From positions 12,477-76,476 of the forward strand of contig JACPKP010000011.1 in NCBI GenBank assembly GCA_016186955.1: a DNA stretch of 64,000 nt, written 5' to 3'. The DNA is from Candidatus Daviesbacteria bacterium (GTDB lineage: Bacteria > Patescibacteriota > Microgenomatia > Daviesbacterales > UBA10151). A program made the translations under genes and the position numbers. Below, piece by piece: positions 7,489 through 32,460 of this stretch. The notes beneath the pieces are model-generated. The model ran no database searches. It had not been told where the DNA came from and was given only the letters and a program-made list of their open reading frames with translations. Within the stretch, counting starts at the first letter, position 1. Every line of letters starts with the position of its first letter.

Positions 7489-8733
7489 ATGAATTCTTTA
7501 GAGAAGATTGTCCAAAAAGCTAAGAAGGTACTGGCTTCCAACAGACAAAAGGGCGTTTCAAAGTGGGGGGGAAGGGAGTATGATTTTGTTTGCCCGTCAG
7601 CTCAAAATTACCCTTTCCAATGGTTTTGGGACAGCGCTTTCCATGCTATTGCTTTGCTCCAAGTTGACCCCGGGCTTGCCAAACAAGAGATCATTTGTTT
7701 ACTCCAAGCTGCCCAACCTGACGGATTTATCCCTCATATGATCCTTTGGGAAAAATCATTACATAAGGCTGCAGAGAATAACTATTCCATTATTTTAGCT
7801 GATGAATTTTATACAGCTACCATCCAACCTCCTGTATTGGCCAGAGCGGTTTTTAGAATCTACCAAACCACTAAGGATAGGGAGTTTCTACTTCAGGTTT
7901 TACCTAAAACAATCAACTTTTTTAACTGGCTCAAAGAATACAGAGACCCTGATAATGATTCCCTGATATCCATTATCCAACCCGATGAGTCCGGATTAGA
8001 CGCTTGTTCAAAATACGACCTTTTATTCAATTTAAGCAGTAAGAAAAAACTTAATAAAGCTATGCGGTTTTTAGTTAAAAGTTATGTTCCTTTCAGAAAA
8101 GATCCTAAAAAATTACCTGCTCTCAATATTTTTAATTGGGAGGATGTCATGGTTAACTCAATCTATGCTGATGGACTGGAATGCTTAGAGTTTCTTTCAA
8201 AAGAAGCGGGATTTTCCGGACAAGCTGCAGAATTAAAGATAGAGTCACAGCAAACCATTAACTCTTTAATGGAAAAGTGTTGGGATAAAAAACGGGGAGT
8301 TTTTTGGGACCTATATGGGGAAGATGAAAAACAGGCTAAAATTCTCACTTTTTCCAGTATCTTCCCGTTAATCCTGAAAAACCTTGATAATTCGATCAAA
8401 GACCGTTTAATCAGTGAACATCTGTTGGATAAAAAGGAGTTCTGGCTGCCTTATCCTATCCCTTCCGTGGCAGCAAATGAACCAAGTTTTGTGCCTGATT
8501 TTACTAATAAAACAATTTGGAGAGGACCTTCATGGGTGAATATAAACTGGTATATTTGGCAAGCGCTCAAAGATGACCCCAGGCGCCAGAATATAGCTAC
8601 TGAGTTAGCCAACCGCACTTTAAAAATGGTTGAAATAGGAGGAATGAGGGAGTTTTTTAACCCATACACAGCCGAAGGTATGGGAGCTATTAACTTTGGT
8701 TGGACAACTCTAATTTTGGATATGATCTCTTAA
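7489..8733 (+). CDS. (alpha/alpha)6-barrel glycoside hydrolase, GH63/mannosylglycerate-hydrolase-like
   Basis: The FQWFWDSAFHAIAL motif and overall length are typical of the GH63/MGH/glycogen-debranching N-glycan glucosidase fold. Confidence 0.45.
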   Translation: MNSLEKIVQKAKKVLASNRQKGVSKWGGREYDFVCPSAQNYPFQWFWDSAFHAIALLQVDPGLAKQEIICLLQAAQPDGFIPHMILWEKSLHKAAENNYSIILADEFYTATIQPPVLARAVFRIYQTTKDREFLLQVLPKTINFFNWLKEYRDPDNDSLISIIQPDESGLDACSKYDLLFNLSSKKKLNKAMRFLVKSYVPFRKDPKKLPALNIFNWEDVMVNSIYADGLECLEFLSKEAGFSGQAAELKIESQQTINSLMEKCWDKKRGVFWDLYGEDEKQAKILTFSSIFPLILKNLDNSIKDRLISEHLLDKKEFWLPYPIPSVAANEPSFVPDFTNKTIWRGPSWVNINWYIWQALKDDPRRQNIATELANRTLKMVEIGGMREFFNPYTAEGMGAINFGWTTLILDMIS

Positions 8734-9003
8734 CTTCTGGCCATCCATAGCCTTATAAGGTCTGCTCTACGGTTTTTGCAGTGCTTTATCAAATGTAAAA
8801 ATCTGAATTTCTTCGATTTCTGATTTGGCTAACAAGAAACAATCAACTAAGCTCAGCTTTTTCTTCCTATAATTTTTTAAACTTTTTTTGAAAATGTCTC
8901 CATCTTGCACAGAGAAATATGACGCTGTAAGTATTGATTCAAGTTTATCAATAATCTGGAACCTGGGAAACTTATAGTATTTAGACAGGGCAAAGTGAAT
9001 CTA

Positions 9004-9130
9004 CACCGCTTTAAAAAGCGGTGCATCTTCCTGTCATTCCCGCGAAGGCCTGCCTTGCCGGCAGGCAGGCGGGAATCCATAATTTCATTCATCCCCAGCT
9101 TTAAAAAGCTGGGGCTTTCTGAAATGACAG
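9004..9130. repeat. Nested GC-rich palindromic element
   Basis: Two gctttaaaaagc hairpins (caccgctttaaaaagcggtg and ccccagctttaaaaagctgggg) flank gcctgccttgccggcaggcaggc. An outer ctgtcattcccgc / gcgggaat / gaaatgacag pairing encloses them. The GC palindrome is related to the repeats at 11430 and 13525. Confidence 0.6.
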
Positions 9131-9179
9131 TAAATCCGTAGTACTCTCGAACAATTATAGAAAGATTATCAGTCTTAAA

Positions 9180-9635
9180 TTAAGATTCTATTGATGACTC
9201 TTCTGGATATCTTTTTCTTGTGTTCATAAATATAGGGCCTAAACCAACAATTAATGCTCCTGCGGCTGCTCCACCCCCAACCATAACTCTAGCCAAACCC
9301 CATGGTCTATCTTTTTGAGCTTGCTCTTCATATTTAGCTATTAACTCACTGGCGGGAACTCCTTGATCAAGTTTGACACAAACTTCTGTTGGATTCTTGA
9401 GGGAATAAACTGGTGGATCTAACCGGGTCAACACTTTCTCGCATTTATTTTTCTCAAAGTTAAATCTATACTCTCCAGAAGTTAAACCATCCGCTCCACC
9501 TGCGACTAACACTCCTCCACCTATCAAACAAATTCCAAACCAATTTAATTTTACCCTCTTAATTTCTTTGCCTAAATTTCTCCCGAATTCGATCATAATG
9601 TTGGGAATTGTATATTGAATTGATTGTCTTGTCAA
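9180..9635 (-). CDS. Hypothetical membrane protein
   Basis: Long ORF with two hydrophobic Gly-rich segments. Confidence 0.35.
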   Translation of the reverse strand: MTRQSIQYTIPNIMIEFGRNLGKEIKRVKLNWFGICLIGGGVLVAGGADGLTSGEYRFNFEKNKCEKVLTRLDPPVYSLKNPTEVCVKLDQGVPASELIAKYEEQAQKDRPWGLARVMVGGGAAAGALIVGLGPIFMNTRKRYPEESSIES

Positions 9636-9688
9636 CTATGAGACTGACGCTTGAATTTTTAGTGTAATTACATAATAATAAAAGAGCT

Positions 9689-10033
9689 ATGGGAGTAATC
9701 ATTTTAGCTGTGATCGTAGGTTTGGGTATTGGCTATTTTGCCACTCAAAATACTAACCAGATTAGTTTATATTTTGGTCCTTATGCTGTCTCAAATACTC
9801 CTCTTTATCTTGTAGTAATAAGCGCCTTGCTTATGGGATTGCTTCTTGCTTGGATCTTTTCTTTAGTCAACTCATTTTCTTCTAAGATTACTCTGCACGG
9901 AAAAGAGAATAAAATTAAAGAAGATGAGAAAACTATTGCAGAGCTTACTAAAGAAATTCACCAGCTCGAGCTTGATAATACTCGTTTGAAAGAAAAGTCA
10001 GGAGAGGGAAAAAACGATGATAAATCTCTATGA
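9689..10033 (+). CDS. Small membrane protein with C-terminal coiled coil (LapA/DUF1049-like)
   Basis: Two TM helices (IILAVIVGLGIGYF, LYLVVISALLMGLLLAWIF) followed by a charged coiled coil. Confidence 0.35.
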   Translation: MGVIILAVIVGLGIGYFATQNTNQISLYFGPYAVSNTPLYLVVISALLMGLLLAWIFSLVNSFSSKITLHGKENKIKEDEKTIAELTKEIHQLELDNTRLKEKSGEGKNDDKSL

Positions 10034-10491
10034 AGAGTCTTTTAGCAAAACTGTGGCGGCTGCTTAAACTCCCCAAACACATTCAACTTAATATCATGAG
10101 ACTTACCCAAGATCAATTCTTAGTTGGAACAACAGGCATTGTCTTCAATAACAAAAATGAGGTTTTACTTTTTAAACATACCTATAGACAACATCAATGG
10201 AGCTTGCCCGGTGGTTATATGAAAGCAACAGAACATCCCTCTGAAGGCCTCGATAGAGAGATCGAAGAAGAGTCTGGACTGATTGTAAGCATTGATAAGG
10301 AAATAAAAATCAGAGCAGACAGGGAAACAGCAAGATTGGATATTGCATACATTGGCGCTTATATTGGTGGAAGGTTTAAATCCAGTAGCGAAGTGTCTGA
10401 CGCCAGATTTTTCTCTTTTGAAAATTTACCCCTTTTGCCTAAAAATCAGCTACTTATGATCAAGGAGGCTCTGCAAATGAAAGTCACTTAA
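10030..10491 (+). CDS. NUDIX hydrolase
   Basis: Nudix box GGYMKATEHPSEGLDREIEEESGL (Gx5Ex7REuxEExGu). Overlaps the upstream gene by 4 nt. Confidence 0.65.
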   Translation: MKSLLAKLWRLLKLPKHIQLNIMRLTQDQFLVGTTGIVFNNKNEVLLFKHTYRQHQWSLPGGYMKATEHPSEGLDREIEEESGLIVSIDKEIKIRADRETARLDIAYIGAYIGGRFKSSSEVSDARFFSFENLPLLPKNQLLMIKEALQMKVT

Positions 10492-10503
10492 CATCTAAAT
10501 GTG

Positions 10504-10827
10504 TCATCTAAACCCGGCTAAATATAATATCAAGCCTACAATTATAGCAATTACCAGCATTGAAGACAGTCCTCCAAAAGCCAATATTCCTAAAACTGAT
10601 AGTACCCATAAAATGAACAATACACCTGCTATTTCTTTAAAAGGACTGGGTAAGACACCAATTACCGATGAAATAACAAGCAGGATTAGAATATTCCATA
10701 GAGTAATTGGTTGACCATTTATGTTAAATAAAATCAAATCAGGGATAGGAAAGGCGCCAACGCTTAAATACCCTACAAACCAAAGAATGATCAAAATGAC
10801 GAGTAAAGCTTCAAGCATTTGAATCAA
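10504..10827 (-). CDS. Hypothetical polytopic membrane protein
   Basis: Three to four hydrophobic helices. Overlaps the next gene on the same strand. Confidence 0.35.
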   Translation of the reverse strand: MIQMLEALLVILIILWFVGYLSVGAFPIPDLILFNINGQPITLWNILILLVISSVIGVLPSPFKEIAGVLFILWVLSVLGILAFGGLSSMLVIAIIVGLILYLAGFR

Positions 10828-11266
10828 CTTTTTTATTTACTTCGTCTGGGGTAACCGGTTTAATAAATTGCAAAAGATTAACTAACCCATATGCCAAAAG
10901 TAAATATACCATCATGGCCACAAAAGTTGACCACTCAATTACAGGACCTTCATCAACAGATGTTTTAATAATTCCCCTGAAAGGGAGTGCAAGGGGAGCG
11001 CTTAAAGAATAAATTAAATTAACAAACCCGCTGGGATACGCTCCAGACATCCTCAGAAATATTCTAAATGCCAGCAAAAATTCAATAACACCTAAGATAT
11101 ACCAAATAACCTGATAGGTACGAAAAATTATTTTTTTCTTTTCAAATACTTTTTGAGGATGCTCAGTTTGTATAGGGGGAGGAGTTATGGTTTTTGTTGT
11201 TTGTGTAACTTGAACCGGAGCAGACTTTGATACTGTTGTTACTTCTTGAGCTTCTAATTGTGCCAT
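10811..11266 (-). CDS. Hypothetical membrane protein (YGGT-like?)
   Basis: Two TM helices flank a FLRMSGAYP loop. Family assignment is weak. Confidence 0.3.
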   Translation of the reverse strand: MAQLEAQEVTTVSKSAPVQVTQTTKTITPPPIQTEHPQKVFEKKKIIFRTYQVIWYILGVIEFLLAFRIFLRMSGAYPSGFVNLIYSLSAPLALPFRGIIKTSVDEGPVIEWSTFVAMMVYLLLAYGLVNLLQFIKPVTPDEVNKKVDSNA

Positions 11267-11429
11267 GTTTTTAATATAACATAAGAACCCAACCAGACCA
11301 AATACTGTTTAAAAATCTTTATTTATGGTGTGATAGTAGGAGTAGGCAAAGCAGTTGGATTTATAATAACATTAATGTTGTTCCAGAACTGGCAGATGGG
11401 TTGGGTGTTGGAGTAGAGCTAGGGGTGCA

Positions 11430-11576
11430 AAAACCCATACACCCTCCGGGTGTATTACCTGCCTGCCCTGCCCTGCCGGCAGGCGGGCGGCAGGCAGGAC
11501 TTGACACCTGCTCTTTTTCGGCTCCGTATTCCTAGTCTTAATCGAACTTGAAGTATCAATTCGAACCTATCTTGCT
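11430..11576. repeat. Repeat copy A: GC-palindrome element plus decayed tRNA-Asn 3'-end remnant
   Basis: aaacccatacaccctccgggtgtattacctgcctgcc...ggcaggcaggacttgacacctgctcttttt is near-identical to 13525-13611. It is followed by ggctcc...aatcgaacttgaag, which resembles the tRNA-Asn 3' region ggctcctcggccaagattcgaacttggaa. Confidence 0.55.
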
Positions 11577-12040
11577 AATCTAGGACTACTTTTTTCTCCC
11601 CTTTTATATATTGACGAATTAATAAACCGATTAAAGTTTGATAGGCTATACCATTTCTCTTGGCTTTAGCTTTAACCTTAATCAAATCCTCAGTATTAAC
11701 CCTGAGTGTAATACTTTTTGTTTGTTGTAACTACCTAAAGTTTCTAGCCGCTTCCTGAAACATTTGTTTAGTAACTTCTAGATTAGGGCTATTTTCAAAT
11801 TCGCCCTTTTCTAAAGCATTTTCTAAATCTTTCTCGTATTTATCAAGTATTACTTTCATTTTTGGCGCCTCCTTTCAGATATTTATCAGCCAACACCCTA
11901 CTTGGGTAGACTGTTTTTAAAAAAACTACTTTTCTTTTTTTATCTATTACGTAAGGCGTTGCATACACATATTCTTTTATCTTTATTACTAGTATTTTCT
12001 TCTCTTCAATATAAGTGCCACTTGGCTCCACTGTGTTGAT

Positions 12041-12910
12041 TCATTTAACCCCTATCTTCCATACCCCTTTTTCCCGAAAAGCAGGAATTGTTTGACGTTT
12101 TGCCGCATTTAAAATTACTGGAGCTGGTTTACCAATTTTTACCGCATACTCAGTTGCTTCGATAATTTTATTCCCTTTAAGATAGGCTACTCTTTTATGT
12201 AAAGCCTCCAGCAGCGCAAGCGATATTAACTTGTCCATATTTTTGGTCATTTTATCATCCCTATATTCCTTAAAAGAGTTATAATAGGCTTGCTTTTCTT
12301 TATCACGGATAATTACTCCAGGAAACCCCAATCTATATAGTTGATAATTTATAATAACTCTGCCAATTCTGCCATTGCCATCATTAAAAGGGTGAATTGT
12401 TTCAAATTGCAAGTGAAATTTAGAAATTTTATCTATAAAGTAATCTATATTATCGCTTGAGTATTCAATTAAAGCCTCTTCCAGTAAACGTTCTATATGT
12501 TCTGGAGCAGTAGCAATAAAAGTCCCTATGCGCACATATTCTGTTTTTTTGCGAAATCTCCCGGCAATACTTTCATCAATATTTCCTATTAACATCTGGT
12601 GAAGGAGTAATACAATCTCTTTAGAAAGCTCTCCAGCTTTATCACGGATATATTCCATGACCCGAGCCAAATTCTTAGCTTCAAAAACTTCACGCAGGCT
12701 GACATTTTTAGATACCTCCATCTCTAAGAGTATCTTCTCTGTTTCTTTTAAAGTTAAAGTAGAATTTTCTATAGCATTTGAGTTATAAACACTCTCGGGA
12801 ATTTCAGCTTCATCAATAATTTTAAGCAGAGACTCTTTGCCTGTCTTAAGATGATCATATTCTTTTTTAAGGATTTCTATCCTTTTTTGAAGGGGAAGCG
12901 AGGTTGACAT
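12041..12910 (-). CDS. Fic/Doc family protein (AMPylase-type)
   Basis: Canonical Fic motif HPFNDGNGRIGR. Confidence 0.75.
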   Translation of the reverse strand: MSTSLPLQKRIEILKKEYDHLKTGKESLLKIIDEAEIPESVYNSNAIENSTLTLKETEKILLEMEVSKNVSLREVFEAKNLARVMEYIRDKAGELSKEIVLLLHQMLIGNIDESIAGRFRKKTEYVRIGTFIATAPEHIERLLEEALIEYSSDNIDYFIDKISKFHLQFETIHPFNDGNGRIGRVIINYQLYRLGFPGVIIRDKEKQAYYNSFKEYRDDKMTKNMDKLISLALLEALHKRVAYLKGNKIIEATEYAVKIGKPAPVILNAAKRQTIPAFREKGVWKIGVK

Positions 12911-13107
12911 GATACCCTATTATACCAGATTCACGTTATTTTGTCAATTTGACGTGAATTAAGTGCCATTTACGGCATAAATTCACGCTATTTAGTCGGT
13001 TCGAGTAAAAACTATCTGGCTCCCCTGAGTTGGTGCGCTTAGAACTAGCATTGTTAGAATCTGAGGACGAATTCGAACCTGTATTCGTTTAAATTAGAAG
13101 AGGACTA

Positions 13108-13347
13108 CTAATTTGCTTGCTCTGAGTCCAGAATAGTCCTTTGATGATCTGAATTGAAGATAATTCTCAATCGTTCTATGGCATCTTTAAGTATGTAACC
13201 ACGACTCCCTAAATTTTCGATAGCATGGTTAGTATTCGCCTGGTCAAACATATCTATAACATAGACTGCTCCTTCTAAAATAGGTTGTACTTCTTCTGTA
13301 GGAGATAATTCTCTTTGAGATGATTCATAAAGGACTCGTTCTATCAT
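13108..13347 (-). CDS. Hypothetical small protein
   Basis: ORF only. Confidence 0.25.
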   Translation of the reverse strand: MIERVLYESSQRELSPTEEVQPILEGAVYVIDMFDQANTNHAIENLGSRGYILKDAIERLRIIFNSDHQRTILDSEQAN

Positions 13348-13524
13348 TGGAGGATAATATCATGACATAATTGAGATTGCAAGAATCATTTTATTTGCTC
13401 TTCGAGTAAATTCTGTTATGCTACTAATTTAGCCTGAAGTTCTGTTTTTAGGCTCTCATTATCTTTGAACAGGATTGTTTGAAGCCCTGCTCTATTAGCT
13501 GCTTCTACATTTACTTCACTATCG

Positions 13525-13611
13525 AAACCCATACACCCTCCGGGTGTATTACCTGCCTGCCGGCCTGCCTGACGGCAGTCAGGGCAGGCAGGACTTGACA
13601 CCTGCTCTTTT
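13525..13611. repeat. Repeat copy B: GC-palindrome element abutting attL
   Basis: Same about 90-nt unit as 11430-11520 (acaccctccgggtgt hairpin, cctgcctgcc...ggcaggcagg palindrome, cttgacacctgctctttttt). Confidence 0.6.
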
Positions 13612-13858
13612 TTGGCTCCTCGGCCAAGATAATATACCCTCGCTTCGCTCAAGCGAACAGCTTCCCATTTCATGGGGCGCAGTTCAAATCAGTCTCGAGA
13701 AAAAAATGAAAAATACAGATATGAAACCTCTATTTTTCATTTTGCTCCCCTTATTGGACACATTAAGAACTTTTAATTACCCTCAACTAGGAAACTTTGC
13801 TTACGCTTAGTTATAAAAATGATAATATACTAAATATAGCATCTTTAAAAATTAAGTA

Positions 13859-14575
13859 ATGAACAGTCAACAAAAAACTTTATTGATTATTAGCTTCGTA
13901 TTAGCTTTTGTAATTCCCATTTATGGATTAAGCCAATCATTAGCAGCTGGGTCATATGGTCAAACAAGACTTCCAGGGTTTACAGTATTTGTACTTGAAG
14001 CTGCCCTATTAGCAGCTACGGTTTTTGTTTATAAAATCCTGAAGGAACATCCAAACCTAAAAAGAAGCCTAATTACAGCTTTGATTGTTTTTATTACTCC
14101 TTTTATAGTTGGTGGATTATGTTTTTGGGGTTATGTTTCTTGGGCTAGCCATCAATATACCCCTTCTAACTTTGTCGCCGATCCAGCACCTCTAAAACCT
14201 GGTAAGGATATCTATCAGGTGGCAGAAGATATACCTTATGGTTACATGACATTAAGAATTGAGGCTGTAAAACGGCTGAGCACCAACATGATTGAGGTGG
14301 ATTTATATGAATATAACTCAAAGGACAATCCAAATAAACTGCAAATGTTTAATTCTCAATATTATTTAGAGGCACCAGACAAAACCAGAATAGAGCCAAA
14401 TTTTGATAATGGTGGTTTAAGAGGGGTTGATGTAGAACCAGATGAGGCAAAAAGAGGTAGAGTACTATTCCAAAATGATGCTTTGAAAGCGAATACACCT
14501 TTTATACTAAAGGTTCTACCATTTGAGGGGTCTCCTGCTCTTTCAGTGGATATTAGTAAGTATCTAGTTCAATAA
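13859..14575 (+). CDS. Membrane protein with C-terminal extracytoplasmic beta domain (DUF4352-like?)
   Basis: Three N-terminal TM helices, then a soluble domain. First gene inside the element. Confidence 0.4.
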   Translation: MNSQQKTLLIISFVLAFVIPIYGLSQSLAAGSYGQTRLPGFTVFVLEAALLAATVFVYKILKEHPNLKRSLITALIVFITPFIVGGLCFWGYVSWASHQYTPSNFVADPAPLKPGKDIYQVAEDIPYGYMTLRIEAVKRLSTNMIEVDLYEYNSKDNPNKLQMFNSQYYLEAPDKTRIEPNFDNGGLRGVDVEPDEAKRGRVLFQNDALKANTPFILKVLPFEGSPALSVDISKYLVQ

Positions 14576-14584
14576 GAAGAACCT

Positions 14585-15391
14585 TTACTGCTTCTTTTTC
14601 CCTCCAACACCTTTAATCTCAGTCAGGGTTTTATCAGCATCTTCCATAACTTTTCTCATAGAGTCGGCTTCTTTGCTCTGAAGAAAGTTGTCTCTTGTAA
14701 GTATTCTTAACGGTGTCTCTTTAGATACCACAAACGAACGTCCAGGCTCAGGAAAAAGTTTAGTACCCACCTTTATGTAGACTATATAACCTGCACCTAT
14801 ATAAAAACGGTAGGCATTCAAACCTGCGAACATATCAGTATCATACTCAGGGTGAGGATCAGCCATAAATGACTGTCCAATATCATCAGGAAACCTCGCA
14901 ATGATAAAAGAGAAGTTATTATCACCCCCTGAGTCATTATTCAATATATTTTGTCTAGCTCTTTCTAATTCTTCCTGGCTAAGATTTATTTTCCCAAATT
15001 GAGGTAACTGGCTTGCTCCTGCCCTCCATAACACTGAGATAACAAAAAGTTTTAATTTTTCATAATCAAATTGAGCTATTTCCCACCCTTTTAAATCACC
15101 ATTAACTATTATCTGCCTGTGGTGGTCTTCGTTTTGAAGAAGTAACCTAGGGGAATAATTATCATAAGGAGCAAATCTATTTTCGCACTCCGCACAAACC
15201 AGATCGGAATCGTACCACCCTATTCTCACCTTGCCTATTGGAAATTGATCCTTTGTATTAGTAATCAATTTCATCGATTGGGTTTTGGTCATTTTTGCTT
15301 TGCGCCTTGAGTACTCAAAATAAGCTCTTGGAAGAACATGAGCATTAGCTAATTTCACTACCTTCTCTTTGCAGAACTTACAGGTTTTCAT
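14585..15391 (-). CDS. Hypothetical protein with N-terminal HNH-like Cys/His motif
   Basis: N-terminal CKFCKEK...AHVLP resembles an HNH/zinc-ribbon nuclease signature. Remainder unrecognised. Confidence 0.35.
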   Translation of the reverse strand: MKTCKFCKEKVVKLANAHVLPRAYFEYSRRKAKMTKTQSMKLITNTKDQFPIGKVRIGWYDSDLVCAECENRFAPYDNYSPRLLLQNEDHHRQIIVNGDLKGWEIAQFDYEKLKLFVISVLWRAGASQLPQFGKINLSQEELERARQNILNNDSGGDNNFSFIIARFPDDIGQSFMADPHPEYDTDMFAGLNAYRFYIGAGYIVYIKVGTKLFPEPGRSFVVSKETPLRILTRDNFLQSKEADSMRKVMEDADKTLTEIKGVGGKKKQ

Positions 15392-15460
15392 AACCCCAAA
15401 ATTTTACCATTAAGGCTGGTATAATAACTAAAGTGACTGCCCTAAAAGAAGTAATGACTT

Positions 15461-16459
15461 ATGATAAAACGAGATGCAAATGGCAAATGGACGGCTTCTA
15501 ATGTCCCCAAGGATGTTAACCCTGTGTATGCAAGGGCTTTAGTAGATTTTTTTAATTCTCTTGACCCTCTCTTCACTAAAGCACAAGAGAAATCTGATTT
15601 TGAGTTTATTTTTGCGTTACTCAATGTTCAAGGAATGCAAGATGCTGGATGGGATGCTTTTGAAACTACCAAAGATATTTTTGAGACTTTTAATAAACTG
15701 AAGTCAAAAATTAAATACAATGATGAACAGCTACACCTTTTTTTAGTTTTATACGGCTTAATACTAGAAGCATCCTATCCATATGACCTTCTCTATAACT
15801 TGCTAAGAATAATTTCAGGCGAAAGATATTCAGTTATTTGCTTCCCAGACATAAAAATGGGTAGTAGTGGCAAGACCAGACCAATGTTTGCATCAGAAAA
15901 AATTAACAAAATAAAAGAACTGGCAAAAAAATTAGGTCTGGAATTAAATATACAACCTCTTGTGAACATTTTTGATAAAGAATTGCGAAATGCTATCTTC
16001 CATTCAGATTATTGCCTTTACGATAACGAATTACGACTACCAAAGTCTTCAACTATCTATAAAGTGGATAATGTAATGGCAATACTAAATAAAACAGTTG
16101 CTTATTACGAGGTGATTGTCAGGCTGGTAAAAATGTATAAGGCATCATATGAGAGACCTGAACTAATTGACCCTCCCCCTAGTTTTAATGCTGACCCAGA
16201 AGAAAAAATGGTAGTAATGGTGCGTAAAGGCACAGGAGCCATTGGAATTAAGAGTAATTGGACACAGGAGGAAATTGCTCAGGGAAAGATATCGTTCAGT
16301 ATAAGCCGCTTATTGCCCTACGAACAAAGAATGCTTCAAAAAGACCCTACGCTAGTTGAGTTCCCAGAAAACAAAGTTGAGAAATGGAATAAATTTTTGC
16401 ATATGTTCCCTGTACCAATAAGAAAACATCTCTTACCTATAACAGAACGGTTCTTGTAG
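15461..16459 (+). CDS. HEPN-motif protein, Abi_2 (AbiD/AbiF)-like abortive-infection candidate
   Basis: Contains ELRNAIFHSDY, a match to the Rx4-6H/RNxxxH HEPN motif conserved in AbiD/AbiF-like proteins. Size about 330 aa. Confidence 0.4.
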   Translation: MIKRDANGKWTASNVPKDVNPVYARALVDFFNSLDPLFTKAQEKSDFEFIFALLNVQGMQDAGWDAFETTKDIFETFNKLKSKIKYNDEQLHLFLVLYGLILEASYPYDLLYNLLRIISGERYSVICFPDIKMGSSGKTRPMFASEKINKIKELAKKLGLELNIQPLVNIFDKELRNAIFHSDYCLYDNELRLPKSSTIYKVDNVMAILNKTVAYYEVIVRLVKMYKASYERPELIDPPPSFNADPEEKMVVMVRKGTGAIGIKSNWTQEEIAQGKISFSISRLLPYEQRMLQKDPTLVEFPENKVEKWNKFLHMFPVPIRKHLLPITERFL

Positions 16460-16477
16460 CCTGTTTTTAAAAATGTA

Positions 16478-17209
16478 ATGAATAAGATTAAATCATCAGA
16501 CACAAAAATAACAATTGGTCAGTTAAGCAAGCTCACGGCTGAAGAGCGAACCAAAGTATTAGAACCAATTGTGAAAGCTAACGCAGAACAATTTACCAAA
16601 ATTGCCAGCGCTATAGGTGAAGCCTCTAATTTTGCTAAGACTATTAGCTCTATTGCCAGCTCTTTTAGGCTTCCGATGATTGATATGTTAGAAAACATCA
16701 AGCTCCCAGAACTACCCCAAATTCCTGATGTATACAGTTCTATTGATACTAAGGGAATGAGCTTTGAAAGATATGATCCACCAGTAGTAATTAAAAAATC
16801 AAAGTGGGAAATAGAAAAAGAAGCACGAGAGGCTTATAGAACAGAACTTCAAATTCAAGTGCTGGAACAACAACTGAATCTTTATAAAGGAATGCTCGCA
16901 CCTCAATATGATATAAATACTGGCACTATTACCTTTCTAGGTAAACAGATACAAATACCTCTAAATACAAATTTGGAAATGATCTGTCGCATTGTTCTTA
17001 AAAACTTAACCAATATGAAACGTAAGTGGTCGTGGGAGGAAATTATTGAAGAAAACAGAGAAAGCACTGATAATTTCACCTCAAGACAAATATATACGGC
17101 AGTCAGGTCAATCAATGATAAAGTTGCCGTAGAAACACAAGCAAAAGACCTACTTATTTCAAAACCCTACTCAACCGTTCAGGTAAACCCCAAATACCTG
17201 GCTAAATAG
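16478..17209 (+). CDS. Hypothetical protein (element cargo)
   Basis: ORF only; partly coiled-coil. Confidence 0.35.
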   Translation: MNKIKSSDTKITIGQLSKLTAEERTKVLEPIVKANAEQFTKIASAIGEASNFAKTISSIASSFRLPMIDMLENIKLPELPQIPDVYSSIDTKGMSFERYDPPVVIKKSKWEIEKEAREAYRTELQIQVLEQQLNLYKGMLAPQYDINTGTITFLGKQIQIPLNTNLEMICRIVLKNLTNMKRKWSWEEIIEENRESTDNFTSRQIYTAVRSINDKVAVETQAKDLLISKPYSTVQVNPKYLAK

Positions 17210-17556
17210 TTAGCTACATTTAGCTACTATCCCCTTTGATAAGCTCTGTTCATTATGAAACAAAGTAATGAGCAGCTAAAAATGAGCTTGGAAAAACTCT
17301 ATGGTCGCACCTTGACCACACAGGAACTTTTTTCTATCAAATACAACCTCGTAGGCTTCTTTGAAACCTTAATTAAGTTAGATAAACAGATGCAGAAAGG
17401 AGCACTTTATGGGAGCTCGTGAAGAAATGCAAAAAGAATATGAGCAGAACCTAGACAATCTCTTTGTTGAGGATTTTAAAGACTTGCTGATGAGTCTTTA
17501 TAAAAAACACCTAAGTTTAAATATAAAAAGAGGTATAGCAGCAAAAAGGAGAAAAA

Positions 17557-17826
17557 ATGCTCAAAGTAAGTGAGGTTCAGATAAGAGTCATTAAGCCCAA
17601 GGATGGGCTCGTAGGCTTTGCTAGCTGTGTCTTAGATGGTGTCCTCTACCTAAGTTCTATTGGCATATTTAGCAGACTGGATGGGACTGGCTACAGAATA
17701 ACTTTCCCAACTAAAAAAGTTGGCGATACTGACCTACAAATCTTTCATCCAATTAGCAGAGAGCTCGGTCAAGAAATAGAACAGGCAATTATTGATAAAG
17801 CTAGAAAGGTTTTTGAGGCTATATGA
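17557..17826 (+). CDS. spoVG: SpoVG family protein
   Basis: MLKVSEVQIRVIKP...GFASCVLDGVLYLSSIGIF...FPTKK...IFHPISRELGQEIEQAI matches the SpoVG pattern V.IR.I/ASI.FD..F.I..I.V/P...DI.HPI..E.R..I. Confidence 0.6.
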   Translation: MLKVSEVQIRVIKPKDGLVGFASCVLDGVLYLSSIGIFSRLDGTGYRITFPTKKVGDTDLQIFHPISRELGQEIEQAIIDKARKVFEAI

Positions 17827-17873
17827 GCTGAAAATCACTGACAGCTTATGTCGCTGAAGTAATGAGGTAAGTA

Positions 17874-19025
17874 ATGATTGACACAGTAATCCTAACTATG
17901 CAACTAGATAAAACACTTGTTACCGACCCTGATAAGTTCACACCTTCGCTAAGATGGCTTAAAGAAAGCGATAGGGGTTTTGGTGCTCGTTTGTTTACAA
18001 AGTACACTCAAAATATAAATCAAAAGTATGGTTATTACCCTCGTTTGACGGTTACTCCTAGATGGAAAGGGTATCTTGAAATACCTCTGAAAATTGAGTT
18101 TTCAGTCCCTAAATTATTATATGGTAACAACTTGGATGAAGTTAGCGAGGATGACTTTGAAAGAGTAATAGAAGTATTACAAAGCAAGCTAAAAGAAATG
18201 GGTATTAGAGTATTTCCAGAGCAGCTTAGAAATGCTCTGGTTTCCGCTGTGCATTATTCAAAAAATATACCCTTGTCTCATTTTGTTACAGCCTCCTGGG
18301 TAATCAGTGTCCTGAGCAAATTAGATGTAACTAAAAGATTAGAGCTTAACCATAGACATTTTAAGAACCAGGGACACGCTCTCTATTTTGACTGTGGCTC
18401 CTACCAAATAGTTATCTACGACAAACTAAAAGATATAGGTAAAAGTAAGCGGCACGCTGTAGATAAAGAACCTACATCAGAACAGCTAGGATTATTTGAC
18501 TTTATTAAGAAAAATAAGATACCTGCAGAAATTCTTAGAATTGAGATTAGACTTGTTCAGAAAGGAAAACTTAATTCCCTCTTTACCCAATTTGGTTATC
18601 CAGCTAATCCTACTTTTAAACAGATTTTTAATAGTGAAATTGCTAGAAAAGTTCTACACTTTTACTGGGACTTTATTGCTAATGAGAAGAGTTTATTTCT
18701 ACTCAAAGCCACTGACCAGGACACTTTAAAACAAGTAATTGAATTCCAGAGATTGAATAAAAGAAAGTTAAGTACTATTGAAACTTTAGGTATAGCTCAA
18801 ATTATAGAGTATTCTAAGACAAATGGGCTTAGAACATTAAGAGAGTCCCTTAGTAGCTTTTATTCAGACAGAAACTGGTTTAGACAACAAAAGTATTTTG
18901 ATTTAATAGAAAAAATTACTGCAGATAAAAAACCGTATGACTTTGTTACAGATATTGAAAATACCCTTAATACATTGAAGCCATATAGAATTGAGAACGA
19001 CTTAATCAAAGGAGAAGAGTCGTGA
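17874..19025 (+). CDS. Putative replication initiation protein (Rep_trans-like)
   Basis: 383 aa, positioned between a small regulator and the integrase as in phage or ICE replication modules. Family call by architecture only. Confidence 0.3.
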   Translation: MIDTVILTMQLDKTLVTDPDKFTPSLRWLKESDRGFGARLFTKYTQNINQKYGYYPRLTVTPRWKGYLEIPLKIEFSVPKLLYGNNLDEVSEDDFERVIEVLQSKLKEMGIRVFPEQLRNALVSAVHYSKNIPLSHFVTASWVISVLSKLDVTKRLELNHRHFKNQGHALYFDCGSYQIVIYDKLKDIGKSKRHAVDKEPTSEQLGLFDFIKKNKIPAEILRIEIRLVQKGKLNSLFTQFGYPANPTFKQIFNSEIARKVLHFYWDFIANEKSLFLLKATDQDTLKQVIEFQRLNKRKLSTIETLGIAQIIEYSKTNGLRTLRESLSSFYSDRNWFRQQKYFDLIEKITADKKPYDFVTDIENTLNTLKPYRIENDLIKGEES

Positions 19026-19226
19026 TAAAGGGATTTTCAAGGCTTTTGCAAGCCTACCTATATTTTCTAAGGATGGGTTTCTTAATCCTCTTTCAATACC
19101 TGAGATATAGGTTCTATCTAACCCAGTCTCAAAACCTAACTTCTCTTGAGAAAGCCCAATGCTCTTTCTTAATTCAAGAATCCTGGCACCGAACTTTTTC
19201 CTTAGTGGACTTGATTTTGTTACCAT
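19002..19226 (-). CDS. XRE-family HTH transcriptional regulator
   Basis: ILELRKSIGLSQEKLGFETGLDRTYISGIERGLRNPSLENIGRLAKAL is a canonical HTH_3 segment. Confidence 0.65.
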   Translation of the reverse strand: MVTKSSPLRKKFGARILELRKSIGLSQEKLGFETGLDRTYISGIERGLRNPSLENIGRLAKALKIPLSRLFSFD

Positions 19227-19308
19227 CAGCTATCATAATCAGAGATAAGTGGACTATTGGTCTACGGACTATTAGTCACAATCTCTGTCAAAAGGAGGTG
19301 AAAAAGTA

Positions 19309-19992
19309 ATGAAAGAAACAGAAAAAAGTACTTCTAAAATAGGCATTGGTTCTATCTTGAGTTGGGGTTTAGGAGGATTATTAGTAGTTGGTGGTATTAT
19401 TGAGCTTTTTAGCAAGCCAGCGATGGGTATTTTTACTCTCCTTGCAGGTTTGATTATATTTCCACCAGCAGTTAAGTTTATTAAAAACAGAACTCACTTT
19501 GAGCTATCAAAAGCCTTAAAAGTAGTAGCATTTTTAGTCCTGCTCGGTATTGGTGGTGCTCTGGCTGGTACTTCAAGTACTTCCACAGCAAGCACACCTA
19601 GTGCTAGCAACCAACAAAACAAACCTAATAGTGCCTCAAGTAAACCTGAGCCAACAGCGACAAGCGTAAGCAAGCAACCAGATGTACCAACTGAATATAA
19701 ATCTGCTCTCAGCCAAGCTACTTCATATGCCAACACAATGCATATGTCCAAGCAAGGCGTCTATGACCAGCTAGTTTCAGAATATGGTGGTAAGTTTTCG
19801 CCAGCAGCCGCACAGTATGGAATAGACAATGTAAAAGCAGATTGGAACGCTAATGCCCTAGCTAAAGCAAAGAACTATCAAGATTCCATGCATATGTCAC
19901 CAGCTGCCATTCATGACCAGCTAACATCTGCTTATGGGGAAAAGTTCACACAATCAGAGGCAGATTATGCTATTCAGCATCTTAACGACTAA
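19309..19992 (+). CDS. Membrane protein with two Ltp-like (PF07553, phage superinfection-exclusion lipoprotein) repeats
   Basis: Two TM helices and a Ser/Thr/Pro linker, then two roughly 48-aa repeats: YKSALSQATSYANTMHMSKQGVYDQLVSEYGGKFSPAAAQYGIDNV and AKAKNYQDSMHMSPAAIHDQLTSAYGEKFTQSEADYAIQHL. Confidence 0.5.
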   Translation: MKETEKSTSKIGIGSILSWGLGGLLVVGGIIELFSKPAMGIFTLLAGLIIFPPAVKFIKNRTHFELSKALKVVAFLVLLGIGGALAGTSSTSTASTPSASNQQNKPNSASSKPEPTATSVSKQPDVPTEYKSALSQATSYANTMHMSKQGVYDQLVSEYGGKFSPAAAQYGIDNVKADWNANALAKAKNYQDSMHMSPAAIHDQLTSAYGEKFTQSEADYAIQHLND

Positions 19993-20094
19993 TAGTGCTT
20001 ATAAAGTGAGACTATACAAAAGTTGTTCTTTTTAATTCTGGGCAGGAGCAATCCTTCCCAGCCTAAAGAGAAGGTTATACCTAACTATAAAATT

Positions 20095-21609
20095 ATGAAG
20101 GCTCTTGGCATTGCTCGTGTATCAACACCAGAACAAAAAGAAGCAGGAAACTCATTACCTGCTCAGGTAGCTCGTATTGAAAAATACTGTCGTATCAAAA
20201 CCTTTGACCCAGTAGAAACATTCAGCTTTGATGAGACTGCCTATAAAGAGGATAGGGATAAGTTTGACAGCATTCTAGATAGGATTATTGAAGAGAAAGA
20301 TAAGATTGCAGTTTGTTTTGATAAAGTTGACCGCTTATCAAGAAATGTATTTGATAAACGAGTATCTTTATTGTACGAAAAGGCTCTAAGAGATGAGATA
20401 GAGCTTCATTTTGTATCTGATGGTCAAGTAATTAACAGTCAAATATCGGCAGTTGAAAAATTCCAGTTTGGTATCAGCTTAGGCCTTGCTAAATATTACT
20501 CAGATGCCATTAGTGACAATGTAAAAAGAGCAACCGAACAAAAACTACGCAGAGGCGAATGGCCTACTAAAGCACCTATCGGCTACTTAAATATAGACCT
20601 GGAAGATGAAAAGAAATGGATTGAAGTTGACACTCAACGAGCAGATTTGGTTATTAAGATATTTGAATGGTATGCAACCACTGCTTATTCCATGGAAATG
20701 CTTAGAAGGAAAGCTAAAGAAGAAGGGTTAACAAACAATACAGTTTCTGGCACCTATCTAACGAAAAGCCAAATAGAACTTATCCTTAAAAATCCTTTTT
20801 ACTATGGCGAAATGCGATATAGAGACAATATTTACCCTCATAGCTATAAACCACTTATATCAAAAGAGTTGTTTGATAAAGTGCAGCAAGTTAAACAAAA
20901 CTGGCACAAAAAGCCCTTTAAGTACGCTGCTAAGCCATTTATTTATAGAGGTCTACTCTCCTGCTCCAGTTGTGGTTGCAGGATTACTTTTGAAACAGCT
21001 AAAGGCAAATACAATTATGGACACTGTACTAACTATTATAAAAATTGTTCTAATGTAGTTTGGATTAGAGAAGAGGATATAACTGACCAATTTAAAGATT
21101 TATTAAAAGGGTTAACTATAGATAAAGAGGTATTAGAAGAACTGGTTAAAGAACTTAGGGATAACCACACAGCCAAGGTTGAGTATCACGAGCGTACCAT
21201 GTCTAACTTAAAAGCAGAATACGATAAATTGGAAAACCGCTTAACTAAAATGTATGAGGATAAACTAGATGGGAGTATTACAGGCGATAAGTATGACAGC
21301 TTACTCAGTAAGTATAAGGGTATTCAGGCAGACATTCTTTTACAGATGGAAAGACATAGTAAAGCAGATGAGAGTTATTACACTGAAGCGAATAAGTTGC
21401 TAGAGCTTGCCAGTCGTGCTTATGAGATTTTTGAAAGTTCTGAAGCCGATGGTAAAAGGGAACTTTTAAAGTACCTACTTCAGAACTCTGAAATGAAAGG
21501 CAGAAAGGTTATTCCCACGCTCCAAATGCCATTTGATGCTATCCTTCTTGCCAACAAAACAAAAGATTGGCTCCTCGGCCAAGATTCGAACTTGGAACCT
21601 TCTCGTTAA
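20095..21609 (+). CDS. Large serine recombinase (integrase)
   Basis: Start set at MKALGIARVSTPEQ (catalytic Ser) rather than 20023. Has a resolvase N-domain, recombinase domain and zinc ribbon CSSCGCRITF...HCTNYYKNC. The ORF's C-terminal about 40 nt run into the tRNA-Asn 3' end, so the true stop is uncertain. Confidence 0.75.
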   Translation: MKALGIARVSTPEQKEAGNSLPAQVARIEKYCRIKTFDPVETFSFDETAYKEDRDKFDSILDRIIEEKDKIAVCFDKVDRLSRNVFDKRVSLLYEKALRDEIELHFVSDGQVINSQISAVEKFQFGISLGLAKYYSDAISDNVKRATEQKLRRGEWPTKAPIGYLNIDLEDEKKWIEVDTQRADLVIKIFEWYATTAYSMEMLRRKAKEEGLTNNTVSGTYLTKSQIELILKNPFYYGEMRYRDNIYPHSYKPLISKELFDKVQQVKQNWHKKPFKYAAKPFIYRGLLSCSSCGCRITFETAKGKYNYGHCTNYYKNCSNVVWIREEDITDQFKDLLKGLTIDKEVLEELVKELRDNHTAKVEYHERTMSNLKAEYDKLENRLTKMYEDKLDGSITGDKYDSLLSKYKGIQADILLQMERHSKADESYYTEANKLLELASRAYEIFESSEADGKRELLKYLLQNSEMKGRKVIPTLQMPFDAILLANKTKDWLLGQDSNLEPSR

Positions 21610-21642
21610 CAGCGAGCCGCTCTACCATTGAGCTACCGAGGA
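21568..21642 (-). tRNA. tRNA-Asn (anticodon GTT)
   Basis: The reverse-complement folds as a cloverleaf: acceptor TCCTCGG/CCGAGGA, anticodon loop CTGTTAA, T-loop TTCGAAT, encoded CCA. Confidence 0.8.
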
Positions 21643-32223: not shown

Positions 32224-32460
32224 TCATATAAATCTCTTTTTTAAAAATGCTCTTCCAGAACCAGACTTTAGATATTTCTCAAAACCATAAGCCTTATATT
32301 TATCTGTAAAAACTAAATAAGTTATCAATTTGACAGGTAATCTACTCTTGGTTGCTGGTACCCATCCGGACTCATGCCGTTTTAAGCGTTCATCTAAATT
32401 ATCTGTACATCCAACATAAGTCTTTTCATCATTACAAGTTAATATGTAAACATACCACAT
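32224..32460 (-). CDS. GIY-YIG nuclease domain protein (UPF0213/Slx1-like)
   Basis: Start set at MWYVYILTC: WYVYILTCNDEKTYVGCTDNLDERLKRHE is a textbook GIY-YIG. The longer ORF N-terminus is read from the repeat sequence. Confidence 0.6.
   Translation of the reverse strand: MWYVYILTCNDEKTYVGCTDNLDERLKRHESGWVPATKSRLPVKLITYLVFTDKYKAYGFEKYLKSGSGRAFLKKRFI

What the first reader, a model, noticed from the sequence alone, without database searches (positions are those of the whole stretch)
8990..13640. Serial, decayed integration scars: GC-rich palindromic repeat family and degenerate tRNA-Asn 3' remnants left of the element
A roughly 90-nt unit occurs at 11430-11520 and 13525-13611: an acaccctccgggtgt hairpin, a long cctgcctgcc...ggcaggcagg palindrome, then cttgacacctgctcttttt. 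Its GC palindrome also occurs in a nested-hairpin element at 9004-9130. Copy B ends exactly at attL. Copy A is followed by ggctcc...aatcgaacttgaag, a decayed version of the tRNA-Asn 3' region (ggctcctcggccaagattcgaacttggaa). Further T-loop-like fragments (aattcgaacc) lie at 11566 and 13068. The simplest reading is a tandem array of successive integrations at tRNA-Asn. The Fic/Doc gene (12041..12910) would lie in an older, eroded element between scars A and B. The NUDIX and membrane genes at 9.2-11.3 kb would lie in a still older one.
Basis: seen in the sequence. Interest (0 to 1): 0.5.

Follow-up and report, generated by a model that had tools for sequence, protein, structure and literature searches.

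The report
Layered insertion scars beside tRNA-Asn
The stretch left of the 8-kb island is a stack of older, gutted insertions at the same tRNA-Asn gene, which is ordinary; but the GC-rich palindrome inside the repeats is a separate 20-base element found in at least 167 unrelated environmental and viral contigs.

Summary
Two 95-nt repeats (11431-11525, 13525-13619) have flanks identical at 73 of 74 positions and a diverged 21-nt centre. Both end in the last bases of tRNA-Asn.

The reading is partly right. In relatives, YggT-NUDIX-LapA is a conserved block that directly follows the outermost tRNA-Asn scar. So 9.7-11.3 kb is core flank, not an older island. The insertion hot spot is 11267-21567.

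It holds three layers separated by tRNA 3'-end scars:
- the 8-kb serine-recombinase island;
- a 0.5-kb remnant (unit B, a weak HAD-like fragment, a 79-aa ORF);
- a 1.45-kb remnant (Fic, a broken antitoxin).

I found a new scar, C, at 12999-13080. It matches a relative's tRNA-Asn/island junction at 26 of 27 bases.

The 95-nt unit is the tRNA 3' end plus a terminator-like flank, present once per layer. Why it occurs twice is unresolved.

The GC palindrome is not att-specific. CCTGCCTGCCGGCAGGCAGG occurs in at least 120 metagenome and 47 viral contigs, against 0-1 for control palindromes. It nests in other hairpins and in itself, and lies just upstream of small GIY-YIG genes in four contigs. At 9033-9078 it interrupts a known NTS/Ssn-type hairpin.

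The scars are ordinary. The palindrome is the interesting part.

The parts
9004..9130 (.). Nested-hairpin composite lying between the glycoside hydrolase gene (7489-8733, +) and the ORF 9180-9635 (-), which converge on it. Not an att scar.
   Evidence: Fold z = -7.4 and -9.8 on the two strands. One terminator-like site on the minus strand at 9025-9002. No tRNA-like similarity above background.
9033..9078 (+). NTS/SRM-type hairpin GTCATTCCCGCGAAGG...CGGGAATCC, interrupted in its loop by a 21-nt copy of the palindrome (9049-9069).
   Evidence: With the palindrome removed it matches 26 of 28 positions of the published NTS consensus (PMC11893778). Uninterrupted copies occur in L013, L082, L126, L143 and L144.
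9689..11266 (.). Core flank, not island: LapA-domain gene 9689-10033 (+), NUDIX 10030-10491 (+), small membrane ORF 10504-10827 (-), YggT 10811-11266 (-).
   Evidence: Pfam hits. Same order and orientation in L028-L034 at 77-86% amino-acid identity. The outermost att scar lies about 30 nt upstream of YggT in L031.
11431..11519 (-). Unit A, read in the tRNA direction: A-rich arm AAAAAGAGCAGGTGTCAAGT, nested palindrome (11458-11498), then hairpin ACACCCGGAGGGTGT followed by a T-run. It is contiguous with the 164 nt that lead to the YggT start codon.
   Evidence: Terminator-like on the minus strand at 11455-11437 and on the plus strand at 11493-11512. Independent Logan assemblies of the same organism break at 11457-11460.
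11520..11568 (-). Scar A: displaced tRNA 3' end. GGAGCC is separated by about 30 extra nt from the T-loop-like sequences CAAGTTCGAT and AGGTTCGAATT.
   Evidence: The composite pattern is unique to scars A and C. AATTCGAACCT is exact at 11558. The 9-mer TCGAACTTG is shared with the tRNA.
11569..12998 (-). Layer E1 remnant: frameshifted CopG/BrnA-type antitoxin (11575-11859), 62-aa ORF (11843-12031), Fic (12041-12910) with a consensus promoter at 12947-12919. No integrase.
   Evidence: Pfam Fic E = 7e-20. CopG_antitoxin E = 8e-6 on the frame-joined ORF. Promoter matches 12 of 12 with a TG extension. No orthologue at this position in L028-L034.
12999..13080 (-). Scar C: tRNA 3' end GGGGAGCCA joined to GATAGTTTTTACTCGAAC, the tRNA-proximal end of an L031-type island, with a T-loop-like AGGTTCGAATT further upstream.
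   Evidence: 26 of 27 bases match L031 6928-6954, E = 3e-5. Alignment A2..
13081..13524 (-). Layer E2 remnant: 79-aa ORF (13108-13347) and a weak HAD-like C-terminal fragment (13416-13532) that is fused in frame to unit B.
   Evidence: ORFs. Hydrolase_like E = 0.019, below the Pfam cutoff. The 79-aa ORF has only two other homologues in the database, one of them next to a GmrSD_N gene.
13525..13611 (-). Unit B: same arm, nested palindrome (13552-13592) and hairpin as unit A. No T-run follows the hairpin.
13612..13630 (.). attL core (scar B): 19-nt repeat of the tRNA-Asn 3' end.
   Evidence: Identical to 21567-21585.
13631..21566 (.). Layer E3: the intact 8-kb island, with a large serine recombinase (20023-21609, +) whose reading frame runs into the tRNA gene.
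   Evidence: Resolvase, Recombinase and Zn_ribbon_recom domains. The island's left end is 78% identical over about 80 nt to a remnant beside tRNA-Asn in L001.
21568..21642 (-). Intact, intron-less tRNA-Asn(GTT), the target of all layers.
   Evidence: ARAGORN. Rfam tRNA 68.3 bits.

Best explanation
The region 11267-21567 is an integration hot spot between tRNA-Asn and the conserved YggT-NUDIX-LapA block. Elements have integrated into the 3' end of tRNA-Asn at least three times.

Each incoming element supplied a new tRNA 3' end. It pushed the previous 3' end, and everything behind it, away from the gene. Reading away from the tRNA, the order is:
- E3, the intact 8-kb serine-recombinase island;
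- scar B (19 nt);
- unit B and the E2 remnant;
- scar C;
- the E1 remnant (Fic, broken antitoxin);
- scar A;
- unit A;
- YggT.

E1 and E2 have lost their recombinases and most of their cargo (inferred). The 95-nt unit is the last 7 nt of the tRNA plus 88 nt of terminator-like downstream sequence.

The unit appears twice because the sequence that followed the tRNA was the same at two different stages. One option is that E2 carried its own copy of tRNA end plus flank in its attachment site. The other is that unit A belongs to an earlier element of the same family. The evidence does not decide between them (inferred).

The GC palindrome inside the units and at 9049 is a separate thing. It is a copy of a 20-nt palindromic insert that nests in hairpins. 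Its fast-changing nested centre explains why the middle of the two units differs while the flanks are identical (inferred).
For: Shown directly:
- The 19-nt direct repeat of the tRNA 3' end bounds an island that carries a large serine recombinase.
- Scar C reproduces 26 of 27 bases of the tRNA-Asn/island junction of relative L031. This is what the layered model predicts for the tRNA-proximal end of an older element.
- Scars A and C share a composite tRNA-3'-like pattern found nowhere else in 64 kb.
- Relatives show the same hot spot. L031-L034 have tRNA-Asn, a 3-kb recombinase island, a direct-repeat scar, then YggT. L023 has a scar 130 nt after the tRNA. L001 has two serial scars plus a remnant 78% identical to the left end of E3. 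L005 has a serine recombinase next to tRNA-Asn. The L002 contig ends at tRNA-Asn.
- YggT, NUDIX and LapA are syntenic at 77-86% identity.
- Fic and the toxin-antitoxin genes have no counterpart at this position in relatives.
- Identity between the units switches from 100% to none exactly at GGCTCC and at AAACCCAT. That is the signature of a recombination breakpoint, not of gradual decay.
- The unit has terminator-like hairpins, as do the tRNA-Asn flanks of L023 and L005.
- The palindrome is shown to be an insert by pairs with and without it. These are the NTS-type hairpin, the repeated element in L092, and tRNA fragments beside intact tRNAs in L104, L112 and L001.
Against: - No recombinase, and no clear distal end, survives for E1 or E2, so their status as former mobile elements is inferred from scars and cargo.
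- The rest of the source genome was not available. Dispersal of the 95-nt unit outside these 64 kb cannot be excluded.
- Alone, each tRNA-like remnant is only in the top 2-6% of background, and covariance search finds no tRNA.
- A strict serine-recombinase model does not predict an 88-nt identical flank at two layers.
- The arm sequence also occurs next to the outermost scar in L001, where YggT does not follow. So whether the unit is native flank or element-borne is open.
- Relatives are distant (DnaG 58-78% identical), so no orthologous empty site was seen.
Confidence: 0.72

Rival explanations
1. The 95-nt unit is itself a small mobile element (MITE, REP or CIME-like) that inserts next to tRNA 3' ends, and each copy is an independent insertion.
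For: The boundaries are sharp at both ends and the two copies have identical flanks. Relatives hold 115-130-nt mini-segments between tRNA-Asn and a direct-repeat scar.
Against: There are only two copies in 64 kb, both at the hot spot. Exact 21-25-nt probes gave no hit: the right-half probe in the genome, metagenome and viral collections, the left-half probe in the viral collection only. The hairpin ACACCC...GGGTGT occurs in none of the 202 fetched loci apart from the four Logan contigs assembled from the source organism itself. There are no terminal inverted repeats or target duplications. No second scar lies at the far side of unit B.
Confidence: 0.12
2. The two units are the ends of a single 2.1-kb segment inserted or duplicated by homologous (Campbell-type) recombination through the unit. 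On this view there were no successive site-specific integrations of E1 and E2.
For: Direct repeats of 95 nt flank exactly 2094 nt, and the flanks are identical.
Against: It does not explain scar C inside the segment, which matches another element's tRNA junction. It also does not explain the repeated T-loop-like motif.
Confidence: 0.1
3. The unit encodes a structured small RNA or regulatory element that is kept in two copies by selection.
For: Strong predicted folds. Terminator-like ends on both strands.
Against: No Rfam match. The structure is mostly the palindrome itself. With two copies there is no informative covariation. No homologue was found in the collections searched.
Confidence: 0.04

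Closest known systems
Tandem accretion of integrative elements and their remnants at a tRNA gene. This covers genomic islands with direct repeats of the tRNA 3' end, and the CIME/ICE accretion described for Streptococcus thermophilus (from my own knowledge).
   Same: An intact tRNA lies at one end. Repeats of its 3' end separate the modules. The newest element carries the recombinase. Older modules lack one and hold toxin-antitoxin, Fic and defence-type cargo.
   Different: The live element uses a large serine recombinase, not a tyrosine integrase. Two layers share an 88-nt flank beyond the tRNA end. The older scars are stretched by 30-45 extra bases.
NTS/dRS3 and Ssn-related motifs (SRM), which are cut by small GIY-YIG single-strand nucleases (Chenal et al. 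2025, PMC11893778).
   Same: The hairpin at 9033-9078 and the one at 59198-59245 match the NTS consensus. The 20-nt palindrome behaves in a similar way: it is a dispersed hairpin repeat, and in four contigs it lies 18-64 nt upstream of a single-domain GIY-YIG gene of roughly 80-90 aa, once flanking the gene on both sides.
   Different: The palindrome lacks the GTCWY tag of the published SRM pattern. It is a perfect 20-mer shared by contigs of 29-71% GC, including viral ones. It nests in other hairpins and in itself. It accompanies duplicated tRNA 5' fragments, which that paper does not mention.
REP/BIME repeats with RAYT transposases, and the GC clusters of yeast mitochondria (PMC3116915, PMC4478555).
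   Same: Very short GC-rich palindromes that spread as inserts, are mostly intergenic, and sit in an AT-rich host here.
   Different: No Y1 transposase or any other protein family is shared across neighbourhoods. There is no target duplication. The identical sequence occurs across very different hosts, whereas REPs are species-specific.

Membership tests
Genomic island or tandem island array at a tRNA gene | An intact tRNA with a direct repeat of its 3' end at the far boundary | tested here: met
   The 19-nt repeat occurs at 13612-13630 and 21567-21585. The tRNA-Asn is intact.
Genomic island or tandem island array at a tRNA gene | A site-specific recombinase encoded in the element | tested here: met
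   Met for E3, which has a large serine recombinase at 20023-21609. Not met for E1 or E2, which have no recombinase ORF, so they are called remnants.
Genomic island or tandem island array at a tRNA gene | Further internal tRNA-end repeats separating the modules | tested here: met
   Scars A and C.
Genomic island or tandem island array at a tRNA gene | Variable content between conserved flanks in relatives | tested here: met
   Different islands lie between tRNA-Asn and YggT in L031-L034 and upstream of YggT in L028. YggT-NUDIX-LapA is conserved.
Genomic island or tandem island array at a tRNA gene | Excision or integration activity | not testable with these tools
   This needs junction reads or an experiment.
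REP/MITE-type dispersed repeat (the 95-nt unit) | Many copies dispersed through the genome | tested here: inconclusive
   Two copies in 64 kb, and no hit for the unit-specific probes (right half in three collections, left half in viral contigs only). The rest of the source genome was not available.
REP/MITE-type dispersed repeat (the 95-nt unit) | Terminal inverted repeats and target-site duplication | tested here: not met
   Neither is present at the unit boundaries.
Decayed tRNA gene copy (scars A and C) | Recognisable by a tRNA covariance model | tested here: not met
   Rfam finds no tRNA in 8800-13800 at E up to 5. Only 3'-terminal fragments remain.
NTS/SRM repeat (hairpins at 9033-9078 and 59198-59245) | Match to CGTCATTCCCGCGMAVGCGGGAATCYRG | tested here: met
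   For the hairpin at 9033-9078, 26 of 28 positions match once the inserted palindrome is removed. The hairpin at 59198-59245 shares the same stem sequences.
NTS/SRM repeat (hairpins at 9033-9078 and 59198-59245) | An Ssn (cd10448) GIY-YIG gene in the genome | tested here: inconclusive
   A 78-aa single-domain GIY-YIG ORF lies at 32224-32457. Membership of cd10448 could not be tested.
SRM repeat (the 20-nt palindrome) | The published degenerate pattern beginning HGTCWY | tested here: not met
   The palindrome has no GTCWY tag (sequence).
SRM repeat (the 20-nt palindrome) | Spatial association with small GIY-YIG genes | tested here: met
   The palindrome lies 18-64 nt upstream of the start codon in 4 of the 6 small GIY-YIG genes found in palindrome-bearing contigs. 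In L112 it flanks the gene on both sides.

The most novel reading that the evidence does not exclude
CCTGCCTGCCGGCAGGCAGG is a previously undescribed, extremely small mobile or nuclease-associated palindrome. It is shared by very different bacteria and viruses. It inserts without target duplication into hairpin loops, into itself and into tRNA 5' fragments. It may be the cognate repeat of a subgroup of small GIY-YIG (Ssn-like) nucleases, which travel as cassettes of the form [tRNA 5' fragment + palindrome]-GIY-YIG-[tRNA 5' fragment + palindrome]-intact tRNA.
Probability: 0.35. Interest if true: 0.7.

Novelty: new member of a known kind. Interest (0 to 1): 0.45.

Why it matters
The scars themselves matter only locally. 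They show that tRNA-Asn is a repeatedly used landing site in Candidatus Daviesbacteria, a lineage with a small genome. They also fix the true boundary between core and accessory DNA at the YggT start.

The palindrome matters more. An identical 20-base sequence in at least 167 unrelated contigs of 29-71% GC, viral ones included, cannot be explained by descent alone. Its position next to small GIY-YIG genes offers a testable link to the recently described Ssn single-strand nucleases. If that link holds, it extends the nuclease-plus-repeat pairing to a new motif and to phages and candidate-phyla bacteria. It would also explain some of the hairpin insertions that break tRNA detection and assembly in these genomes.

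Tried and rejected
- **Unit-specific probes.** The right-half probe (21 nt) found nothing in viral, genome or metagenome collections. The left-half probe (25 nt) was run on viral contigs only and found nothing. The source genome is absent from those collections.
- **Exact-protein look-ups.** Fic, NUDIX and VIT found nothing on record. The YggT look-up found only 1-kb Logan contigs of the same organism, which break at the repeat.
- **Rfam.** Nothing in 8800-13800 except a chance microRNA match. The idea that the unit is a known RNA was dropped.
- **Scars as tRNA pseudogenes.** Dropped: single-tile alignment scores are within the top 2-6% of background. Only the composite pattern and the L031 junction match are convincing.
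- **Palindrome as artefact or chance.** Two same-composition control palindromes gave 1 and 0 viral hits against 47. There are 173 distinct flank contexts. I take it to be real.
- **Target-site duplication.** None is consistent.
- **Shared neighbouring transposase.** None; only small clusters of phage genes and GIY-YIG genes.
- **General linkage of the palindrome to tRNA genes.** Weak: 3% against 1.4% within 100 nt. The tRNA association is confined to the GIY-YIG cassettes.
- **79-aa ORF homologues.** They gave no context bearing on the unit.
- **Literature.** No paper in the library contains the 20-mer.

Full report
**What is in the sequence**

The window comes from a Candidatus Daviesbacteria genome (candidate phyla radiation). 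Its VIT, YggT and 79-aa proteins are 100% identical to NCBI entries of that name on a 104-kb contig.

tRNA-Asn(GTT) lies at 21568-21642 on the minus strand. A 19-nt copy of its 3' end, TTGGCTCCTCGGCCAAGAT, occurs at 13612-13630 and 21567-21585. These copies bound an 8-kb island. The island's large serine recombinase (20023-21609) reads into the tRNA gene.

- Unit A is 11431-11525 and unit B is 13525-13619, both 95 nt.
- The left 37 nt match 37/37 and the right 37 nt match 36/37. The central 21 nt are diverged.
- Both fold into a short hairpin plus a long GC hairpin.
- The GC motif is confined to three places in 64 kb.
- The element at 9004-9130 is a strongly folded nested hairpin.

**Where the core genome begins**

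I reached relatives through homologues of YggT and DnaG.

In seven contigs (L028-L034), YggT, NUDIX and the LapA-domain gene keep the same order and orientation at 77-86% amino-acid identity. For comparison, RpoD is 82% and DnaG is 58% identical.

In L031-L034 the order is:
- dnaG, rpoD, a 230-aa gene;
- tRNA-Asn;
- a 3-kb island with an HTH_17 gene and a serine recombinase;
- a repeat of the tRNA 3' end;
- about 30 nt;
- the YggT start codon.

So the ancestral neighbours are tRNA-Asn and YggT. In the window everything between 11267 and 21567 is inserted material. The stretch 9.7-11.3 kb is conserved flank. The ORF at 9180-9635 has no counterpart in these contigs, so its status is open.

**The scars**

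Alone, the tRNA-like fragments after unit A and near 13070 are weak.
- Their local alignment scores fall in the top 2-6% of window background.
- No covariance hit appears.

Together they are not chance.
- AATTCGAACCT occurs exactly only at 11558 and 13070.
- GGCTCC followed 20-50 nt later by TTCGAACC occurs only at 11520-11567 and 13018-13079, with 0.00 expected.

The decisive result is scar C. On the minus strand, window 13025-12999 reads GGGGAGCCAGATAGTTTTTACTCGAAC. This matches 26 of 27 bases of L031 6928-6954, which is the last bases of L031's tRNA-Asn joined to the first 18 nt of its island.

This is what a layered array predicts. Each incoming element brings its own tRNA 3' end. The displaced end then sits in front of the tRNA-proximal end of the element that was there before.

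**The layers, read away from the tRNA**

- E3 (13631-21566): the intact island.
- Scar B (13612-13630).
- E2 remnant (13081-13611): unit B, a weak HAD-like C-terminal fragment (E = 0.019, below the Pfam cutoff), and a 79-aa ORF. That ORF has only two other homologues in the database, one of them beside a GmrSD_N gene.
- Scar C (12999-13080).
- E1 remnant (11569-12998). Its tRNA-proximal end is of the L031 type. It carries Fic with a 12/12 consensus promoter, a 62-aa ORF and a frameshifted CopG/BrnA-type antitoxin.
- Scar A (11520-11568).
- Unit A, then 164 nt, then YggT.

Relatives show the same habit.
- L001 has two serial scars, and a segment of about 80 nt that is 78% identical to the left end of E3.
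- L023 has a scar 130 nt after the tRNA.
- L005 has a serine recombinase beside tRNA-Asn.
- The L002 contig ends at tRNA-Asn.

**What the 95-nt unit is**

In the direction of the tRNA the unit reads as follows:
- the last 7 nt of the tRNA;
- AAAAAGAGCAGGTGTCAAGT;
- the nested GC palindrome;
- TAAT;
- the hairpin ACACCCGGAGGGTGT, followed in unit A by a T-run.

It scores as terminator-like on both strands. The tRNA-Asn genes of L023 and L005 are also followed by terminator hairpins.

Identity between the units stops abruptly at both ends. That points to a recombination boundary, not to decay.

By the layering logic, unit A followed the tRNA before E1 arrived, and unit B followed it before E3 arrived. 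So the same 88 nt followed the tRNA at two stages. Two explanations are possible.
- E2 carried a copy of the tRNA end plus flank in its attachment site.
- Unit A belongs to an earlier element of the E2 family.

L001 carries a similar arm (AAAAGGAAAGGTGTCAA) next to its outermost scar, without YggT behind it. This leans slightly towards the element-borne reading. I could not decide between the two.

Nothing supports a dispersed 95-nt repeat. There are two copies here. The unit-specific probes found nothing: the right half in three collections, the left half in viral contigs only. The short hairpin occurs in none of the other fetched loci, apart from the four Logan contigs of the source organism itself.

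**The GC palindrome is a separate element**

Two control palindromes of the same composition gave 1 and 0 viral hits.

*Variants and hosts.* There are 187 sites.
- 125 are perfect.
- 61 carry one particular asymmetric variant.
- Among the 182 sites with full flanks there are 173 distinct flank contexts.
- The host contigs range from 29 to 71% GC.

*Context.*
- There is no consistent target duplication.
- The sites are depleted in long open frames, 53% against 84%.
- They are enriched about eight-fold for abutting stems and for flanking short repeats.
- Seven sites are nested inside another copy, as in units A and B.

*Pairs with and without the palindrome show it is an insert.*
- The hairpin GTCATTCCCGCGAAGGCGGGAATCC is uninterrupted in L013 and L143. 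Close variants of it are uninterrupted in L082, L126 and L144. At window 9049-9069 it carries a 21-nt palindrome in its loop.
- Two copies of a 130-nt element in L092 differ by exactly the 20-mer.
- tRNA 5' fragments carry it where the adjacent intact tRNA does not. This is seen in L104 and L112, and in L001, the closest relative, where it sits in a duplicated tRNA-Asn 5' half.

*Divergence of the unit centres.* I attribute this to the instability of a nested palindrome. This is inference.

**Link to known systems**

The host hairpin at 9033-9078 matches 26 of 28 positions of the NTS consensus of Chenal et al. 2025 (PMC11893778). That paper describes hairpin repeats found across phyla. The repeats are cut as single strands by small GIY-YIG nucleases (Ssn), whose genes are often flanked by their own repeats.

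A second window copy of that hairpin (59198-59245) holds a different palindrome, TCCGCCAGCTGGCGGA. It lies in frame inside ORF 59105-59590.

The 20-nt palindrome does not fit the published repeat pattern. However, in palindrome-bearing contigs it lies 18-64 nt upstream of 4 of the 6 single-domain GIY-YIG genes found there, each roughly 80-90 aa.

L112 shows the fullest form:
- a tRNA-Ser 5' fragment with the palindrome in its D-loop;
- the GIY-YIG gene;
- the same fragment with the palindrome again;
- the intact tRNA-Ser.

L002 shows the same layout at tRNA-Asn, with the second palindrome. No other protein family recurs near the palindrome. No paper in the library contains the 20-mer. Whether these GIY-YIG proteins belong to the Ssn family (cd10448) could not be tested.

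**Verdict**

- Right: serial integrations at tRNA-Asn, with Fic in an eroded layer.
- Wrong: the older-island reading of 9.2-11.3 kb.
- Wrong: treating the GC palindrome as an att feature.

The scar array is an ordinary new example of a known kind. The palindrome is the unexpected part and deserves its own follow-up.

Noticed in passing
L035-L201 (metagenome and viral contigs); window 9049-9069, 11458-11498, 13552-13592: The 20-nt palindrome CCTGCCTGCCGGCAGGCAGG occurs in at least 167 contigs of 29-71% GC, with 173 distinct flanks. Control palindromes give 0-1 hits. One asymmetric variant makes up a third of the copies.
   Followed up: partly
L112 4362-4870; also L104 770-1190, L145 640-1140, L196 500-820, L002 7890-8266: A recurrent cassette: a tRNA 5' fragment with a palindrome in its D-arm, a small single-domain GIY-YIG gene (roughly 80-90 aa), sometimes the fragment again, then the intact tRNA (Ser, Asn and others). 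L002 uses TCCGCCAGCTGGCGGA instead of the 20-mer.
   Followed up: partly
window 59198-59245, inside ORF 59105-59590: An NTS-type hairpin carrying the 16-nt palindrome TCCGCCAGCTGGCGGA lies in frame in a 161-aa ORF, where it adds roughly 15 residues (about RMDSLRQLADRGNDS). This recalls the in-frame palindromic elements of Rickettsia.
   Followed up: partly
window 32224-32457 (-) and 32586-32621: A 78-aa single-domain GIY-YIG ORF lies just downstream of tRNA-Ser(TGA), with several GC-rich hairpins in between. A homologue lies next to tRNA-Ser(GGA) in L031-L033.
   Followed up: partly
L001 3114-3381 (-); L031 6685-6888 (+): In these relatives tRNA-Asn is split by a group I intron in the anticodon loop at position 35/36 (Rfam 63 and 69 bits), and ARAGORN misses the gene. 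This is the case described in PMC13011429. The window's tRNA-Asn has no intron.
   Followed up: yes
L001 3418-4340: A second, partial tRNA-Asn 5' half with its upstream region lies next to VIT. It is interrupted by the 20-nt palindrome and by a 52-nt double hairpin. A 228-aa HTH_23 ORF follows it. L031 has a homologous 230-aa ORF between rpoD and tRNA-Asn.
   Followed up: partly
window 20023-21609: The reading frame of the serine recombinase crosses the attR core and ends 42 nt inside the tRNA-Asn gene. Integration therefore sets the C-terminus of the protein.
   Followed up: no
window 12919-12947 (-): A perfect TTGACA-17-TATAAT promoter with a TG extension lies just upstream of Fic, although the element around it is eroded. 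The neighbouring antitoxin is frameshifted.
   Followed up: no
L092 1060-1360: Two copies of a tRNA-Ala 3'-like element have several different small hairpins inserted, in the anticodon arm, the T-loop and the acceptor stem. One copy also carries the 20-nt palindrome.
   Followed up: no
L024-L027 against window 11457-11460: Independent Logan assemblies of four sequencing runs contain the same organism and all break at the start of the palindrome in unit A. L025 shows a strain variant near 10503.
   Followed up: partly
L002 6695-8266: In this relative the ABC substrate-binding gene (71% identical to window 5587-6636) lies between rpoD and tRNA-Asn, where the window has VIT. Gene order around the hot spot is therefore rearranged between species.
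   Followed up: no
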